Source of the DNA: Escherichia coli
GTDB taxonomy: Bacteria > Pseudomonadota > Gammaproteobacteria > Enterobacterales > Enterobacteriaceae
Strand: one strand, 5' to 3'
Assembly (NCBI RefSeq): GCF_003334305.1
Contig: NZ_QOWS01000020.1
DNA length: 64,000 nucleotides
Shown: piece by piece, positions 58,718 to 62,845 of the stretch
Layout: each line of letters begins with the position of its first letter
How positions within the stretch are numbered: position 1 is the stretch's first letter
The notes under the pieces: model-generated
What the model was told of the DNA's origin: nothing
The model's input: only the letters and a program-made list of their open reading frames with translations
Databases searched by the model: none
Translations under genes and position numbers: made by a program

Positions 58718-58743
58718 AAAACCGGAGCCTTGTGCTCCGGTTT
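58718..58743. terminator. hairpin between convergent dppF and yhjV (bidirectional terminator candidate)
   Basis: aaACCGGAGCcttgtGCTCCGGTtt read directly; yhjV stop lies within it. Confidence 0.5.
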
Positions 58744-60013
58744 ACTCAATCAGCTTCAACAGTGGCGACAAGCATAGCAAAATGCCGTACAGCAGAATCA
58801 GCCAGGCTTTAAATCCGCGAAGTTTTTCCAGTTGTGCGACTTTATAGATCAGGAAAAACGGAATGAGGCACGACACAATGCCATATAACGGGCTTCCCAA
58901 CTGAAAGAACACCAGCACCGATACACGAAACGAAACCCAAATCGTCAACGTAATGACGATAAAAGCGCAGATCGCCAGAGTCAGCACGCGTGAGTTAATT
59001 TTCTTGGTATCAATAATACGGCTTAACAGATTGAGAATAATGCCTTTAATGGCCTCGTGGAAACCGAGATAAATGCCAAAGAATGCGGTCAGTACGGCAA
59101 AGATATTCAGTACCGTAGAGGTGATATGAATGATATGCCCAGGGATCACCTGCGCGGCCAGTGCCAGTGCCGAGATATTTTGTTCAAAGGCAGAAACGGC
59201 TTCTTCGTGGCTAATTGAGAAGGTAAACGAAAAGGCAAAAAACAGTATCACCGCGATGAGCGTGACATAACTAATTCGGTGGGTACGCAGCGCGAGCCGG
59301 GTTGCCAGTACTTTATCCGCTTCCCGTTTACGATAGGCAATATTCATTGGGTTAAGTACCTGAATAAATACCGCAGAAAAGAAGCAAAAGGGAATGGTAA
59401 GCAGGACATCGTGGAAAAAGACGGAGGCTTGCGGGAAGGCGGTTATATTGGCGAAATTCCAGTGCGGGATCATCGCAAAACCGAACACGACAATAATCCC
59501 TACTTTGACCACCACCATTGGCCCAGAAATCTTAAACAGTAATCGTTCACCACCAGACGCAATCGCCACCAGTACGGCGAAAATAGCGACTTTATAAAGT
59601 AGAGATTGTGAAAGATCGGCATCGGTTAAACCGAAGGTTTTCAGGTACGAGGCGCTGTCGAAAACCACGGAGAGAGAGTAGATAAAAATCCCGTGGATAA
59701 TCATCAAAAAGTAGATAACCCCGAGGAAAATTCCCCAGTTCTTCCCCAGGTAATGACTGATAATATCGGTGTAGTCATTACAGGAATCGCTTTCAGAAAG
59801 GGTTTTTAAATAAATGTCCTGCACTACCCAAGTGGCAGGATAAGCAATGATCGCTGCGGTAATAAATACCCAAATTCCCTTCAAGCCAATTTGTACTGGC
59901 ATCAGCACGGTTCCGGCACCAATCGCCATGCCTATGCATAATAAAACCCAGCCGAAGTCGTAGCGTGTAAACGGCAATTTCTGATCGTGTTTCGGTAGTG
60001 TGTTGTGCTGCAT
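58742..60013 (-). CDS. yhjV: amino acid (HAAAP/serine-type) transporter family protein
   Basis: ORF track extends to 60076; trimmed to ATG 60013 ([32 protein letters not shown]); 423 aa. Confidence 0.8.
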
Positions 60014-60294
60014 AAAGTCCTGTCCAGAAAGAAGTCGGCCTCGCAAAAATGAATAAACCCAGATTCTCTTGCGCAACAGGTGGAGAAGTCGAATACGCAG
60101 TATGTAAAAAATGAGGCAACAGATTCACTGGGGAGGTCGCGAGGAGGCGCAATTCTACAAAATTGCGCATTTCACTACCAGTCTGGAGTCAGCCCGGATA
60201 TGAACTGCAACTATTGCAAATTAAGAAATTAAGCTGGAAGGCATCACGCAATGAGGAAGATTGCCGGGTGCTGACAGTAAAAAGCAATCGTAAA

Positions 60295-60365
60295 ATCAGC
60301 GGCAAGCCGGAAGGGTTCCGGTGAGGCGCAATGTTGCGGGGGCTTTATCCCTGGTGGCATTGGTT
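60295..60365 (-). ncRNA. rdl: presumptive Rdl-type cis-antisense RNA of LDR copy 1 (approximate)
   Basis: Position inferred from published ldr/rdl architecture (antisense to ldr mRNA 5' leader); minus-strand hairpin CCGGAAcccTTCCGG followed by T-rich run lies here. Confidence 0.25.
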
Positions 60366-60488
60366 GCTGGAGAGAGAAAACCCCCGCACGTTGCAGGTAT
60401 GCACCTGACAACATAACGGGGGCTAATCTTGAACCTAAACAACTCAAGAATAGCCGCGAAACGTTGTCATTACAACACAGGCGGCTAT

Positions 60489-60596
60489 ATGACGCTCGCA
60501 GAGCTGGGCATGGCCTTCTGGCATGATTTAGCGGCTCCGGTCATTGCTGGCATTCTTGCCAGTATGATCGTGAACTGGCTGAACAAGCGGAAGTAA
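60489..60596 (+). CDS. ldr: Ldr-family type I toxin peptide, 35 aa
   Basis: ATG 60489 to TAA 60594-60596: MTLAELGMAFWHDLAAPVIAGILASMIVNWLNKRK. Confidence 0.85.
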   Translation: MTLAELGMAFWHDLAAPVIAGILASMIVNWLNKRK

Positions 60597-60646
60597 CGTG
60601 TCATGCGGGCGTCAGGCTGCCGTAATGGCAATTTGCGCCCGGACCA

Positions 60647-60678
60647 GGCCGCAGGGGTGAAACTCTGCGGCCTTTTTC
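60647..60678 (+). terminator. intrinsic terminator of ldr mRNA, copy 1
   Basis: GGCCGCAGgggtgaaactCTGCGGCCttttt read directly. Confidence 0.75.
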
Positions 60679-60777
60679 GTAAGAAAAATGCAACGGTTGC
60701 AAGCGGATAATATTCTGCGGAATGCGCAGCACAGAGTGAGTAAGTGATGGATTTCGGAACAGAAAAACAGTCGTAGA

Positions 60778-60848
60778 ATCAGCGGCAAGCCGGAAAGGTT
60801 CCGGTAAGGCGCAATGTTGCGGGGGCTTTATCCCTGGTGGCATTGGTT
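60778..60848 (-). ncRNA. rdl: presumptive Rdl-type cis-antisense RNA of LDR copy 2 (approximate)
   Basis: Same reasoning as copy 1. Confidence 0.25.
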
Positions 60849-60971
60849 GCTGGAGAGAGAAAACCCCCGCACGTTGCAGGTATGCACCTGACAACATAAC
60901 GGGGGCTAATCTTGAACCTAAACAACTCAAGAATAGCCGCGAAACGTTGTCATTACAACACAGGCGGCTAT

Positions 60972-61079
60972 ATGACGCTCGCAGAGCTGGGCATGGCCTT
61001 CTGGCATGATTTAGCGGCTCCGGTCATTGCTGGCATTCTTGCCAGTATGATCGTGAACTGGCTGAACAAGCGGAAGTAA
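60972..61079 (+). CDS. ldr: Ldr-family type I toxin peptide, 35 aa (identical to copy 1)
   Basis: ATG 60972 to TAA 61077-61079; identical 108-nt ORF. Confidence 0.85.
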   Translation: MTLAELGMAFWHDLAAPVIAGILASMIVNWLNKRK

Positions 61080-61129
61080 CGTGTCATGCGGGCGTCAGGC
61101 TGCCGTAATGGCAATTTGCGCCCGGATCA

Positions 61130-61161
61130 GGCCGCAGAGGTTAAACTCTGCGGCCTTTTTC
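61130..61161 (+). terminator. intrinsic terminator of ldr mRNA, copy 2
   Basis: GGCCGCAGaggttaaactCTGCGGCCttttt read directly. Confidence 0.75.
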
Positions 61162-61165
61162 GTGC

Positions 61166-62845
61166 TTACTGCGGGTAAGGCACCCAGTCGCCGCCGTTCA
61201 GGCGAACGTACGGTTTATCCTGGTATTGAATAACTACTGCATTTGAGTTCTCGGAGACCGGTGCTGTTTGTGGCAACCCACTGGTGAGTTTTTTCCAGTC
61301 AACATTGTCTTCGGTGAAAATCTTGCCATCAAGAACGCGAACCACCAGATCGGAGATAGCCAGGAAGCTGCTCGGTTGGTCAATGACAATCGGTGCCCCC
61401 TGATGTGGTGCCTTCATGCCGAAGAATTTCACCCCAACGGGGACGTCTGTGATAGACGGGCTAGGGATATCACGTAGGCCAGATACCTGCATTCTGTCGC
61501 CCTTCAGCGCGCCGCCGTGTTCCGGCACCACGACCACCATCACTTTACGACCCGATTTCTCCAGTTCAGTAAAGAAGGCGTCCAGTTCATCAAAGAATTT
61601 CTGCGCCCGCGCTTTGTAATCCGCTGTTTTGCTGACCCCCGGATAATGGTTGCCGTCATGCAGTGGAAGCGTGTTGTAGAACGTGGCACTACGGCTATTT
61701 TTATCTTTTTCGGTAACGTCCAGCCAGCGGTTAAGCACGGCGGTATCGTCATAAACCGGCGAACCATCAAAGCCCAGCAAAATAACCGGCAGATTTGTTT
61801 GATCCATCAATTCAGTCTGCATGCCGCCATTTTCGCGAACTTCTTTCAAAAAACCGCCGAACTGGCCGTTATGCCCCATCATCAGGTGCTGGGTAAAGCC
61901 CAGTTTCGAAAGGTTATCAAACAGATAGCAGTCGTTATTTGCCGGTTGATACAGATTAGTGTGCGAAGTCTGCCCGCAGCTGGCGCGCAGTAAACGGATC
62001 GCCGCCGGGCCACTGTAGGAGGTGGCGGAGTTAAAGTTCTTGAACTCAATATCGAAATGCGACCACAGTGGATGCGACATCAACCCGGCGGCTTCTATAT
62101 CCGACCAGGAAAGCGAACAGATGTTAATCACCAGTAGTTCAAATGGCTGAGCATCAGCGGGCAGCGAAGACGGGAAGGTCGATTTACGTTTCGCCTCCGC
62201 GTTATAGAAATTATTCAGCCAGGCGTTAAGGTTCGCCGTTGTTGGCGGTGCAGTTTGTGCGGGCATATCACCCACTACCGGTGCGCCACCCGTCGCCGCA
62301 ACGGTTGCCGCTGCGTTACCACCCGTCGTTGTTACAGTGGTCGTCGGTTGTCCGGCTGGCCACAAGGAGAAACTTGGTCCCGCCAGGGTAAGTACGCTCA
62401 GCCATAGCAGTATGGCAACCACAAAAACGGTAATGCGAATCCATTGTGACAGGAATAACCAGGCCACTAATAAAACAAAAATGGCCCCAATCATCTGCCA
62501 GTTAATAAAGCGTGTGACAAGGTCGATTAAATAATCGGTACTGAACCCCGCCACCTGCGAACCCTGGCTCATTATGCTTTCCGGGCCAGGCAACCAGGTG
62601 TCATGCCAGAACAAAGCAAAGCCGATCGGCAGGGCAATCCAGTGGCGCAAGCGATGCAGGCTGTAGCGCGGAATGGGCATCAGCAGAAACGCGGCAAACA
62701 CCAAATTGAGGAGCGGATGGAAGTTAAGATATCCCGCCCACAACAGGCCGAACTTAACCAGAAAATAGAAGTTCCAGCCGGAAAGGCCGCGCCAGTATTG
62801 CCAGAGGGAAGAAGGCATGGCGGTATTTTGTGTAAATTGAGTCAT
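61166..62845 (-). CDS. bcsG: cellulose biosynthesis protein BcsG (phosphoethanolamine transferase)
   Basis: 559 aa; N-terminal TM domain plus sulfatase-like domain; overlaps bcsF by 4 nt. Confidence 0.85.

What the first reader, a model, noticed from the sequence alone, without database searches (positions are those of the whole stretch)
60240..61165. Tandem pair of ldr/rdl type I toxin-antitoxin (LDR) units between yhjV and bcsG
Two direct repeats with a 483-bp period each carry an identical 35-codon ORF (MTLAELGMAFWHDLAAPVIAGILASMIVNWLNKRK; 60489-60596 and 60972-61079) and end in a hairpin plus T-tract terminator. The aligned ~387-bp cores differ at about 5 positions, two of them in the terminator loop. 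Each leader carries a long-range inverted repeat (GCGGGGG...CCCCCGC, 60336-60387 in copy 1) that could fold the mRNA 5' region. To my recollection the K-12 reference has a single LDR-D unit here and a tandem LDR-A/B/C triplet elsewhere, so this looks like a strain-specific duplication of a toxin locus, probably by unequal recombination. The second unit ends 2 nt before the bcsG stop.
Basis: partly seen in the sequence, partly recalled or inferred. Interest (0 to 1): 0.6.

Follow-up and report, generated by a model that had tools for sequence, protein, structure and literature searches.

The report
Two-copy ldrD/rdlD toxin-antitoxin array
This is a two-unit array of the well-known E. coli LdrD/RdlD small-toxin/antisense-RNA cassette between yhjV and bcsG; the number of units here varies from one to at least four among E. 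coli strains, so the finding is real but ordinary.

Summary
Two direct repeats with a 483-bp period lie between yhjV and bcsG. Each carries an identical 35-codon Ldr ORF, a full-length RdlD antisense RNA gene on the opposite strand, and a hairpin/T-tract terminator. The peptide matches Pfam Ldr_toxin (E=1e-26) and differs from K-12 LdrD only at F3L. RdlD scores 91 bits against a gathering score of 50.

The reading "strain-specific duplication" does not hold. K-12 does have one unit. But among 5,426 complete E. coli genomes I estimate about 39% with one unit, about 9.5% with two and about 51% with three or more. Four-unit arrays were seen directly. Two-unit arrays at the same locus also occur in Escherichia sp. 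E1V33 and in a divergent lineage. BL21(DE3) is already published as having three ldrD/rdlD pairs here.

What is particular to this window is that the two units are identical over a 320-bp interior and differ only at 8 edge sites. Strain ACN001 shares all 8 of those sites. This suggests an old array whose interior was homogenised by gene conversion, giving two identical RdlD RNAs.

The mechanism is a hok/sok-like type I toxin-antitoxin system. It is inferred from homology and predicted folds, not measured here. The element is already known and interest is low.

The parts
58742..60013 (-). yhjV (left flank of the array), 423 codons from the annotated ATG
   Evidence: ORF. The same gene is annotated as yhjV in K-12 and ACN001 at the matching position.
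60280..60680 (+). LDR-D unit 1 core (401 bp)
   Evidence: Repeat family D1 and pairwise alignment. Its edge SNPs are of the 'first-unit' type shared with ACN001 and KY175 unit 1.
60291..60296 (+). Putative -10 box (TAAAAT) of the unit 1 ldr promoter. The inferred transcription start is near 60303-60305.
   Evidence: Read from the sequence. Conserved as TAGAAT in unit 2 and K-12. No good -35 box, and the consensus promoter scan found nothing. This is an inference.
60304..60678 (+). Inferred ldr mRNA of unit 1 (about 375 nt, with a 185-nt 5' UTR)
   Evidence: Predicted fold of -182 kcal/mol, z = -8.3 against shuffles. The consensus fold is shared with the K-12 LDR-A/B/C/D units. The ends are inferred, not mapped.
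60375..60440 (-). rdl antisense RNA gene of unit 1 (66 nt)
   Evidence: Rfam RF01813 rdlD, 91 bits (gathering score 50), E=4e-19, full model 1-66. Hairpin plus U-tail fold of -31.7 kcal/mol, z = -5.3. Terminator-like site on the minus strand.
60447..60475 (-). Putative rdl promoter of unit 1: TTGTAA (60475-60470), 17 nt, TATTCT (60452-60447), with the -10 box followed by 6 nt before the RdlD 5' end
   Evidence: Read from the minus-strand sequence. It matches 8 of 12 consensus positions, below the scan's threshold. This is an inference.
60489..60596 (+). ldr toxin ORF of unit 1 (35 aa)
   Evidence: Pfam Ldr_toxin PF13940, E=1e-26, residues 1-35 of 35.
60646..60678 (+). Intrinsic terminator of unit 1
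   Evidence: 11-bp stem (8 G-C pairs), 6-nt loop, TTTTT tail.
60681..60762 (+). Inter-unit spacer (82 bp). It carries the region upstream of the unit 2 promoter.
   Evidence: Not alignable to the unit 1 upstream flank except for an in-register 17-mer. The same spacer precedes units 2, 3 and 4 in other strains. The junction is found in 3,303 genomes.
60763..61163 (+). LDR-D unit 2 core (401 bp)
   Evidence: Its edge SNPs are of the 'last-unit' type, identical to ACN001 unit 2 and KY175 unit 4.
60774..60779 (+). Putative -10 box (TAGAAT) of the unit 2 ldr promoter
   Evidence: This is an inference.
60858..60923 (-). rdl antisense RNA gene of unit 2, identical in sequence to that of unit 1
   Evidence: Rfam RF01813, 91 bits. 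Sequence identity shown.
60930..60958 (-). Putative rdl promoter of unit 2
   Evidence: Sequence identical to the unit 1 element. This is an inference.
60972..61079 (+). ldr toxin ORF of unit 2 (35 aa, identical to unit 1)
61129..61161 (+). Intrinsic terminator of unit 2
61166..62845 (-). bcsG (right flank), convergent with the ldr genes
   Evidence: 559-aa ORF. Annotated as bcsG in the matching genomes.

Best explanation
The interval holds two intact copies of the LDR-D type I toxin-antitoxin cassette.

What each unit encodes:
- On the + strand, a highly structured mRNA of about 375 nt with a 185-nt leader. It encodes the 35-residue membrane toxin Ldr.
- On the - strand, from a promoter inside that leader, a 66-nt antisense RNA (Rdl). 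It is perfectly complementary to leader positions 60375-60440 (unit 1) or 60858-60923 (unit 2).

How it most likely works, by homology with K-12 ldrD/rdlD and in a hok/sok-like manner:
- The full-length mRNA is translationally silent. Its Shine-Dalgarno region and start codon (60463-60498) are paired with the 3' UTR (60606-60632), and a 5'-3' helix (60325-60330 with 60634-60639) closes the molecule.
- Rdl first contacts the mRNA through its single-stranded 5' tail, at a leader stem-loop whose loop is 60432-44.
- The resulting duplex blocks toxin translation, possibly through a leader ORF, and is cut by RNase III.

The two-unit state is not a new duplication. It is one allele of a species-wide copy-number polymorphism at this locus (1 to at least 4 units), maintained by unequal recombination. 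In this strain the interiors of the two units have also been homogenised, most likely by gene conversion. The two Rdl RNAs and the two toxins are therefore identical and should cross-regulate. The net effect would be simply a doubled dose of both toxin mRNA and antitoxin.

Shown here: sequence and family membership, gene positions, the copy-number survey and the SNP pattern. Inferred: transcript ends, RNA folds, translational silencing, toxicity and the direction of array change.
For: Identity of the units:
- Pfam Ldr_toxin, E=1e-26, full length.
- 34/35 residues identical to K-12 LdrD.
- Rfam rdlD at 91 bits against a gathering score of 50, twice, on the opposite strand.
- Terminators on both strands.
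- Same yhjV-bcsG position as K-12 ldrD/rdlD.

RNA structure:
- mRNA fold z = -8.3 and RdlD fold z = -5.3.
- The long-range helices are kept in all 12 sequences compared, including LDR-A/B/C, whose coding region differs by about 25%.

Literature on mechanism:
- LdrD is toxic, RdlD represses it, and a hok/sok-like model with a leader ORF ldrX has been proposed (PMC4147584; PMC8167048).
- ldrD-rdlD dsRNA is cleaved by RNase III (PMC7373196).

Copy-number polymorphism:
- 2,636 genomes have 1 or 2 units.
- 3,303 genomes have a unit-spacer-unit junction.
- Annotated arrays of 1, 2, 3 and 4 units exist.
- Two-unit arrays occur in other Escherichia lineages.
- BL21(DE3) has three pairs (PMC5435950).

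Homogenisation:
- There are 8 edge differences, all shared with ACN001, and a 320-bp identical interior.
- ACN001's units have 6 further interior differences.
- Neighbouring units in other arrays differ at 12-31 sites.
Against: - No expression data exist for this strain, and the transcription start is only inferred from a -10 box.
- The consensus promoter scan found no sigma-70 site.
- The long-range helices are invariant, so there is almost no covariation support: 1 compensatory pair in 105.
- The proposed leader ORF could not be identified unambiguously. The candidates are ATG 60331-60408 and an in-frame TTG at 60429.
- The gene-conversion inference rests on 6 interior SNPs relative to one close relative.
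- The copy-number fractions come from subtracting coverage classes, not from per-genome counting. They ignore rare rearranged loci such as IS insertions.
Confidence: 0.92

Rival explanations
1. This is the first reader's view: a recent, strain-specific duplication of a single LDR-D unit by unequal recombination on a K-12-like single-copy ancestor.
For: K-12 and EDL933 carry one unit. The two units in the window are very similar, with 8 differences in 401 bp and a 320-bp identical interior. No complete genome carries exactly this allele; the best match is 99.4%.
Against: - A fresh duplication would copy the unit edges too. Instead the 8 edge differences and the 82-bp spacer match those in ACN001 and correspond to the first and last units of 4-unit arrays.
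- About 61% of complete genomes have at least two units.
- Sister Escherichia lineages have two units at the same locus.
- The spacer is unrelated to the flank upstream of unit 1. A simple duplication of the K-12 arrangement would not produce that.
Confidence: 0.04
2. The two-unit allele is a contraction of a longer (3-4 unit) array. Unequal crossover removed the interior units and left the first and last.
For: Window unit 1 carries first-unit edge SNPs and unit 2 carries last-unit edge SNPs, identical to KY175 units 1 and 4. Arrays of three or more units are the commonest class, at about 51%. K-12's single unit combines the unit 1 flank with SNPs at 60293 and 60313 that match downstream units, as expected for a collapse.
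Against: The two out-lineages sampled (E1V33, SCPM-O-B-8794) have two units. This fits equally well with two being ancestral and later expansion. There are too few informative sites and no phylogeny. This rival concerns only the direction of change and is compatible with the main explanation.
Confidence: 0.4
3. One or both units are decayed, non-functional relics, or the repeat is an assembly artefact.
For: No -35 box is recognisable for either ldr promoter. 483-bp repeats are prone to mis-assembly from short reads. One published analysis suspected assembly error for ldr arrays in another strain (PMC7232551).
Against: - Both ORFs are intact and identical.
- Both rdl genes score the full 91 bits.
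- The -10 boxes, terminators and all predicted helices are intact.
- The two units differ at 8 sites and have distinct flanks, so they are not a collapsed or duplicated read pile.
- The same architecture is present in finished genomes.
Confidence: 0.03

Closest known systems
ldrD/rdlD (LDR-D) of E. coli K-12
   Same: Same locus (yhjV-bcsG). The toxin is 34/35 identical. The rdl gene is in the same position and has the same fold, and the leader and terminator match. The core differs from window unit 1 at 10 of 401 sites.
   Different: K-12 has one unit and the window has two. The toxin has L3 instead of F3. The RdlD 5' tail differs (GTTTAGGTT here, GTCTAGAGT in K-12).
Three ldrD/rdlD pairs between bcsG and yhjV in E. 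coli BL21(DE3) (PMC5435950), and the 2-4-unit arrays annotated in RefSeq genomes (ACN001, E2348/69, TUM2802, JNEC-KY175, 2014C-3050)
   Same: The same tandem array at the same locus, with the same 483-bp period and the same 82-bp spacer.
   Different: The unit number differs. In every other array examined, each unit has its own RdlD 5'-tail variant. In the window the two are identical.
LDR-A/B/C triplet (ldrABC/rdlABC) between kdsA and chaA in K-12
   Same: Same family, same tandem organisation and same predicted mRNA architecture. The leader and 3' UTR are nearly invariant.
   Different: The locus differs and the period is 535 bp. The toxin sequence is diverged (MTLAQFAMIFWHDLAAPILAGIITAAIVSWWRNRK), and the upstream and spacer sequences differ.
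hok/sok (and mok) of plasmid R1 and chromosomal homologues
   Same: The working model is shared: a stable, folded, translationally inert toxin mRNA with 5'-3' pairing, and a short antisense RNA against the leader rather than the toxin's ribosome-binding site. A leader-ORF coupling has been proposed (ldrX) (PMC4147584; folds).
   Different: The toxin family is unrelated. The Rfam 'sok' model matches the ldr leader only below threshold (30.9 bits against a gathering score of 59). Leader-ORF coupling and 3' processing have not been demonstrated for ldr.
ibs/sib and zor/orz tandem type I toxin-antitoxin loci of E. coli
   Same: They are tandemly repeated in one intergenic region and their copy number varies among strains (PMC2887945; PMC11264685). 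Sib RNAs discriminate between cognate and non-cognate targets, according to the abstract of PMC2943612 as listed. This parallels the unit-specific RdlD tails seen in other strains.
   Different: The toxins and RNAs are different. Discrimination among Rdl variants has not been tested.

Membership tests
Ldr/Rdl type I toxin-antitoxin (LDR-D subgroup) | 35-residue hydrophobic peptide of the Ldr toxin family | tested here: met
   Pfam PF13940 Ldr_toxin, E=1e-26, 1-35 of 35. 34/35 identical to K-12 LdrD. RefSeq names the identical protein WP_001295224.1 'toxin Ldr family protein'. NCBIfam HMMs gave no hit.
Ldr/Rdl type I toxin-antitoxin (LDR-D subgroup) | Fst/Ldr superfamily signature: a transmembrane helix with a PXXXG motif, a conserved Trp after the helix, and a charged C-terminus | tested here: met
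   Read directly from the peptide: P17-V-I-A-G21, then W30 followed by LNKRK. The signature is as described in PMC7472228 and PMC2887945.
Ldr/Rdl type I toxin-antitoxin (LDR-D subgroup) | cis-encoded antisense RNA of about 65 nt opposite the 5' UTR (not the ribosome-binding site) of the toxin mRNA | tested here: met
   Rfam RF01813 rdlD at 91 bits against a gathering score of 50, at 60375-60440 and 60858-60923 on the minus strand. This is 49-114 nt upstream of each ATG. Expression was not tested.
Ldr/Rdl type I toxin-antitoxin (LDR-D subgroup) | Long structured toxin mRNA ending in an intrinsic terminator | tested here: inconclusive
   Terminators were found. The fold has z = -8.3, and the consensus fold is shared with K-12 LDR-A to D. 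The 5' end is only inferred from a -10 box, and there is almost no covariation.
Ldr/Rdl type I toxin-antitoxin (LDR-D subgroup) | Chromosomal position between yhjV and bcsG | tested here: met
Ldr/Rdl type I toxin-antitoxin (LDR-D subgroup) | Peptide toxic when over-produced, with toxicity relieved by the cognate Rdl | not testable with these tools
   Known for K-12 LdrD/RdlD (Kawano 2002, as summarised in PMC4147584). The window peptide differs by F3L.
hok/sok-type regulation (mechanistic analogy, not membership) | Leader ORF (mok-like 'ldrX') overlapping the toxin's translation start, targeted by the antisense RNA | tested here: inconclusive
   The leader ORFs present are ATG 60331-60408 (25 codons, GAGG upstream, overlaps the Rdl target, ends 80 nt before ldr) and an in-frame TTG at 60429 inside the Rdl target. 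Neither could be matched to the published ldrX. The proposal itself is unconfirmed.
hok/sok-type regulation (mechanistic analogy, not membership) | 5'-3' fold-back that silences the full-length mRNA | tested here: inconclusive
   The predicted helices 60325-60330/60634-60639 and 60463-60498/60606-60632 are present in all 12 sequences. They are invariant, so there is no covariation.
Rfam sok (RF01794) | Score at or above the family's gathering threshold | tested here: not met
   30.9 bits against a gathering score of 59 on the + strand leader.

The most novel reading that the evidence does not exclude
In multi-unit LDR-D arrays, each unit normally carries its own variant of the RdlD 5' tail and of the matching leader loop. 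In the 7 other arrays examined, no two units within an array share a tail. Variation falls in unpaired RdlD positions: 12 of 20 unpaired positions vary against 8 of 46 paired ones. The units could therefore be partly orthogonal toxin/antitoxin pairs, as shown for Sib/Ibs. On that reading, the window would be a natural case in which gene conversion has collapsed two specificities into one. Array size and tail diversity would then be selected traits rather than neutral recombination products.
Probability: 0.12. Interest if true: 0.35.

Novelty: already known. Interest (0 to 1): 0.12.

Why it matters
It matters little beyond annotation. Both toxin ORFs and both antisense genes should be annotated; the rdl genes are usually left unannotated outside K-12.

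Users of K-12-based expectations should know that one unit at this locus is a minority state, about 39% of complete genomes, not the norm.

The rough copy-number distribution (about 39% one unit, 9.5% two, 51% three or more) and the unit-specific RdlD tails might be useful starting points for anyone studying redundancy and cross-talk among type I toxin-antitoxin copies. Neither overturns anything known.

Tried and rejected
- Tandem Repeats Finder reported nothing. The likely reason is that the array has fewer than two full periods of a period close to its 500-bp limit. The repeat was established with the repeat finder and pairwise alignment instead.
- NCBIfam HMMs gave no hit for the 35-aa peptide. 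Pfam did.
- The consensus promoter scan found no sigma-70 site in 60000-61300. The promoters given in the parts list were read by eye and are inferences.
- I considered whether the yhjV-proximal flank holds a relic of a third unit, because of the 19-mer at 60135-60153 that resembles 60314-60332 (family D2). Local alignment scored 20 against a shuffle mean of 18 and maximum of 25, so it is chance.
- The Rfam 'sok' hit on the leader is below threshold and was not used for classification.
- The exact-pattern scan of species-representative genomes found only 3 loci. It requires exact matches, so it under-samples other species. One locus is a 503-bp low-coverage contig labelled Bacillus, probably contamination.
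- The Kawano 2012 review that describes ldrX is not held, so the published coordinates of ldrX could not be checked.
- I could not count units genome by genome. The fractions come from coverage classes, checked against the evenly spaced sample of 40 rows (4 two-unit, 15 one-unit, 20 three-or-more).
Full report
**Observation**

The repeat finder gives a two-copy direct repeat (60280-60579 and 60763-61062, 98% identical) with 483-bp spacing. In the pairwise alignment the homology runs over 401 bp (60280-60680 and 60763-61163). An 82-bp spacer (60681-60762) separates the units and does not align with the sequence upstream of unit 1.

Each unit holds the same 35-codon ORF, MTLAELGMAFWHDLAAPVIAGILASMIVNWLNKRK, at 60489-60596 and 60972-61079. 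A degenerate search finds only these two in the 64-kb window, against 0 expected by chance. Terminator-like hairpins with T-runs follow each ORF at 60646-60673 and 61129-61156. Unit 2 homology stops at 61163, and the stop codon of the convergent 559-codon ORF (bcsG) is at 61166-61168.

The cores differ at 8 sites: 60284, 60287, 60293, 60313, 60323, 60644, 60655 and 60659. Position 60655 changes a G-U stem pair to A-U, and 60659 lies in the terminator loop. Tandem Repeats Finder returned nothing, probably because there are fewer than two full periods.

**What it is**

- The peptide matches Pfam Ldr_toxin (PF13940) over its whole length, E=1e-26. It differs from K-12 LdrD only at residue 3, L for F.
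- It shows the Fst/Ldr signature described in the literature: PXXXG (P17-G21), then W30 followed by a charged tail.
- On the opposite strand, Rfam's rdlD model (RF01813) matches at 60375-60440 and 60858-60923. Both matches score 91 bits against a gathering score of 50 and cover the full model.
- The 66-nt RNA folds into the expected single-stranded 5' tail plus long hairpin plus U-tail, at -31.7 kcal/mol with z = -5.3.
- The flanking genes are yhjV and bcsG, as at the K-12 ldrD/rdlD locus.
- The window as a whole is ordinary E. coli chromosome. It is 99.5-99.8% identical over 24 kb to several strains, in the bisC-eptB-dpp-yhjV-bcs region.

**Copy number across strains**

The two-unit state is far from strain-specific, however.

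- With a 2-kb query spanning the array, 2,636 of 5,426 complete E. coli genomes cover at least 80% of it. This class holds the one-unit and two-unit alleles. In the remaining genomes the match breaks at the end of unit 2, because another spacer follows rather than bcsG.
- With a 161-bp query centred on the spacer, 3,303 genomes contain a full unit-spacer-unit junction.
- If every genome has at least one unit, this gives about 2,123 genomes (39%) with one unit, about 513 (9.5%) with two and about 2,790 (51%) with three or more.
- The evenly spaced sample of 40 rows agrees: 15 one-unit, 4 two-unit and 20 with three or more.
- I confirmed individual alleles in annotated records:

| Units | Strains |
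|---|---|
| 1 | K-12 |
| 2 | ACN001, EPEC E2348/69 |
| 3 | TUM2802 |
| 4 | JNEC-KY175, 2014C-3050 |

- An exact-pattern scan of species-representative genomes found two-unit arrays between the same flanking ORFs in Escherichia sp. E1V33 and in the divergent E. coli-labelled strain SCPM-O-B-8794.
- The literature already records the variation. [quoted passage not shown] Fozo et al. described lineage-specific duplications of Ldr loci (PMC2887945).
- I found no systematic survey of this locus in the held papers. The 2024 copy-number study covered tis, shoB and zor only.

**History of this allele**

I aligned 22 LDR-D units from nine arrays.

- Window unit 1 carries the edge SNPs typical of first units, as in ACN001 unit 1 and KY175 unit 1.
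- Window unit 2 carries those typical of last units. It is identical at the edges to ACN001 unit 2 and KY175 unit 4.
- All 8 differences between the window's units are also differences between ACN001's units. The two-unit structure is therefore inherited.
- ACN001's units differ at 6 further interior sites: 60401, 60402, 60436, 60438, 60441 and 60584. The window's units are identical from 60324 to 60643.
- At four of those six sites both window units carry the ACN001 unit 2 base. At the other two both carry the ACN001 unit 1 base. The window's interior is therefore a mosaic.
- Neighbouring units in other arrays differ at 12-31 sites.

The simplest reading is gene conversion between the two units in this lineage. 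This rests on few sites and is an inference. No complete genome carries exactly this allele; the best match is 99.4%. Whether the two-unit allele is ancestral or a contraction of a longer array cannot be decided here. K-12's single unit combines the unit 1 flank with two SNPs typical of downstream units, which hints that it is a collapsed array.

**Mechanism**

What is known for K-12: LdrD over-production kills, RdlD counteracts it, and Rdl overlaps the 5' UTR rather than the ribosome-binding site. A hok/sok-like model with a leader ORF (ldrX) has been proposed but not confirmed. RNase III cuts the ldrD-rdlD duplex.

What the window shows:
- A -10 box (TAAAAT at 60291-60296; TAGAAT at 60774-60779) sits at the start of each core, without a recognisable -35 box. 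A start near 60304 gives a transcript of about 375 nt. This agrees with my recollection of the size reported by Kawano et al. 2002, which I could not check.
- That RNA is predicted to fold far better than shuffles, at -182 kcal/mol with z = -8.3.
- In the consensus fold of 12 LDR units, including K-12 A to D, a 5'-3' helix (60325-60330 with 60634-60639) closes the molecule.
- In the same fold, the region holding the Shine-Dalgarno sequence and start codon (60463-60498) pairs with the 3' UTR (60606-60632).
- These segments are invariant even though the coding regions of the D and A/B/C types differ by about a quarter. This is compatible with constraint but gives almost no covariation (1 compensatory pair in 105).
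- A leader stem-loop (stem 60427-60431/60445-60449, loop 60432-60444) presents the sequence complementary to Rdl's single-stranded 5' tail.
- A plausible rdl promoter (TTGTAA, 17 nt, TATTCT, at 60475-60447 on the minus strand) has 6 nt between its -10 box and the Rdl 5' end.
- Leader ORFs exist: ATG 60331-60408, and an in-frame TTG at 60429. I could not tell which, if either, is the proposed ldrX.

**A side result**

Across 25 units there are 16 distinct Rdl sequences. Variation is concentrated in unpaired positions (the 5' tail, a bulge and the apical loop): 12 of 20 unpaired positions vary against 8 of 46 paired ones. The Fisher test gives p of about 0.001, but the sequences are related, so this is indicative only.

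In every other multi-unit array examined, each unit has its own 5'-tail variant. The window is the exception, with two identical Rdl RNAs. This raises the untested possibility of unit-specific pairing, as in Sib/Ibs. Here it would mean that the two units are fully redundant and cross-regulating.

**Verdict**

The identification as ldr/rdl units and the K-12 comparison are right. The 'strain-specific duplication' reading is not. This is a known element in a common, previously noted copy-number polymorphism, with a lineage-specific homogenisation of the two units as the only particular feature. Novelty: already known. Interest: low.

Noticed in passing
window 60338-60491 and 60821-60974 (+): The Rfam 'sok' model (RF01794) aligns to the ldr leader on the sense strand at 30.9 bits. 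This is below the gathering score of 59, with E=4e-4. It is a weak sequence/structure resemblance between the ldr and hok leaders, in line with the proposed hok/sok-like regulation, but it is not a family match.
   Followed up: no
window 60203-60219 and 60686-60702 (+): This is the only similarity between the flank upstream of unit 1 and the inter-unit spacer, and it is exactly in register (483 bp apart): AACTGCAACTATTGCAA against AAATGCAACGGTTGCAA. It contains a TGCAAC/GTTGCA palindrome about 85-100 bp upstream of the inferred ldr start. The alignment score is 19 against a shuffle mean of 14 and maximum of 22. A related motif aligns at the same place in K-12 LDR-A/B/C. It could be a remnant of an originally longer repeat or a protein-binding site.
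   Followed up: partly
window 60147-60168: A perfect 8-bp palindrome, GCGCAATT-CTACAA-AATTGCGC, lies in the divergent yhjV / ldr unit 1 intergenic region. Its GAGGCGCAAT half resembles the 5' end of the ldr mRNA, but that similarity is no better than chance.
   Followed up: partly
L008 2604-3062 (E. coli O127:H6 E2348/69): An IS200C transposase gene is inserted between the last LDR unit and bcsG. In this strain a HipA-family toxin gene, rather than dppF, lies beyond yhjV.
   Followed up: no
L011 (NZ_JABWSY010000055.1, 503 bp): A 503-bp contig with coverage 0.66, in an assembly labelled Bacillus sp., carries an exact 32-nt match to ldrD. It is most likely E. coli contamination of that assembly.
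   Followed up: no
window 60429-60596 and 60912-61079 (+): A TTG codon inside the Rdl target is in frame with ldr and is preceded by GGGGG. It would give a 55-residue N-terminally extended Ldr. From the K-12 substitutions shown, I read the frame as open in K-12 too, by hand rather than with a tool, although 3 of the 20 extension codons differ. Whether it is ever translated is unknown.
   Followed up: partly
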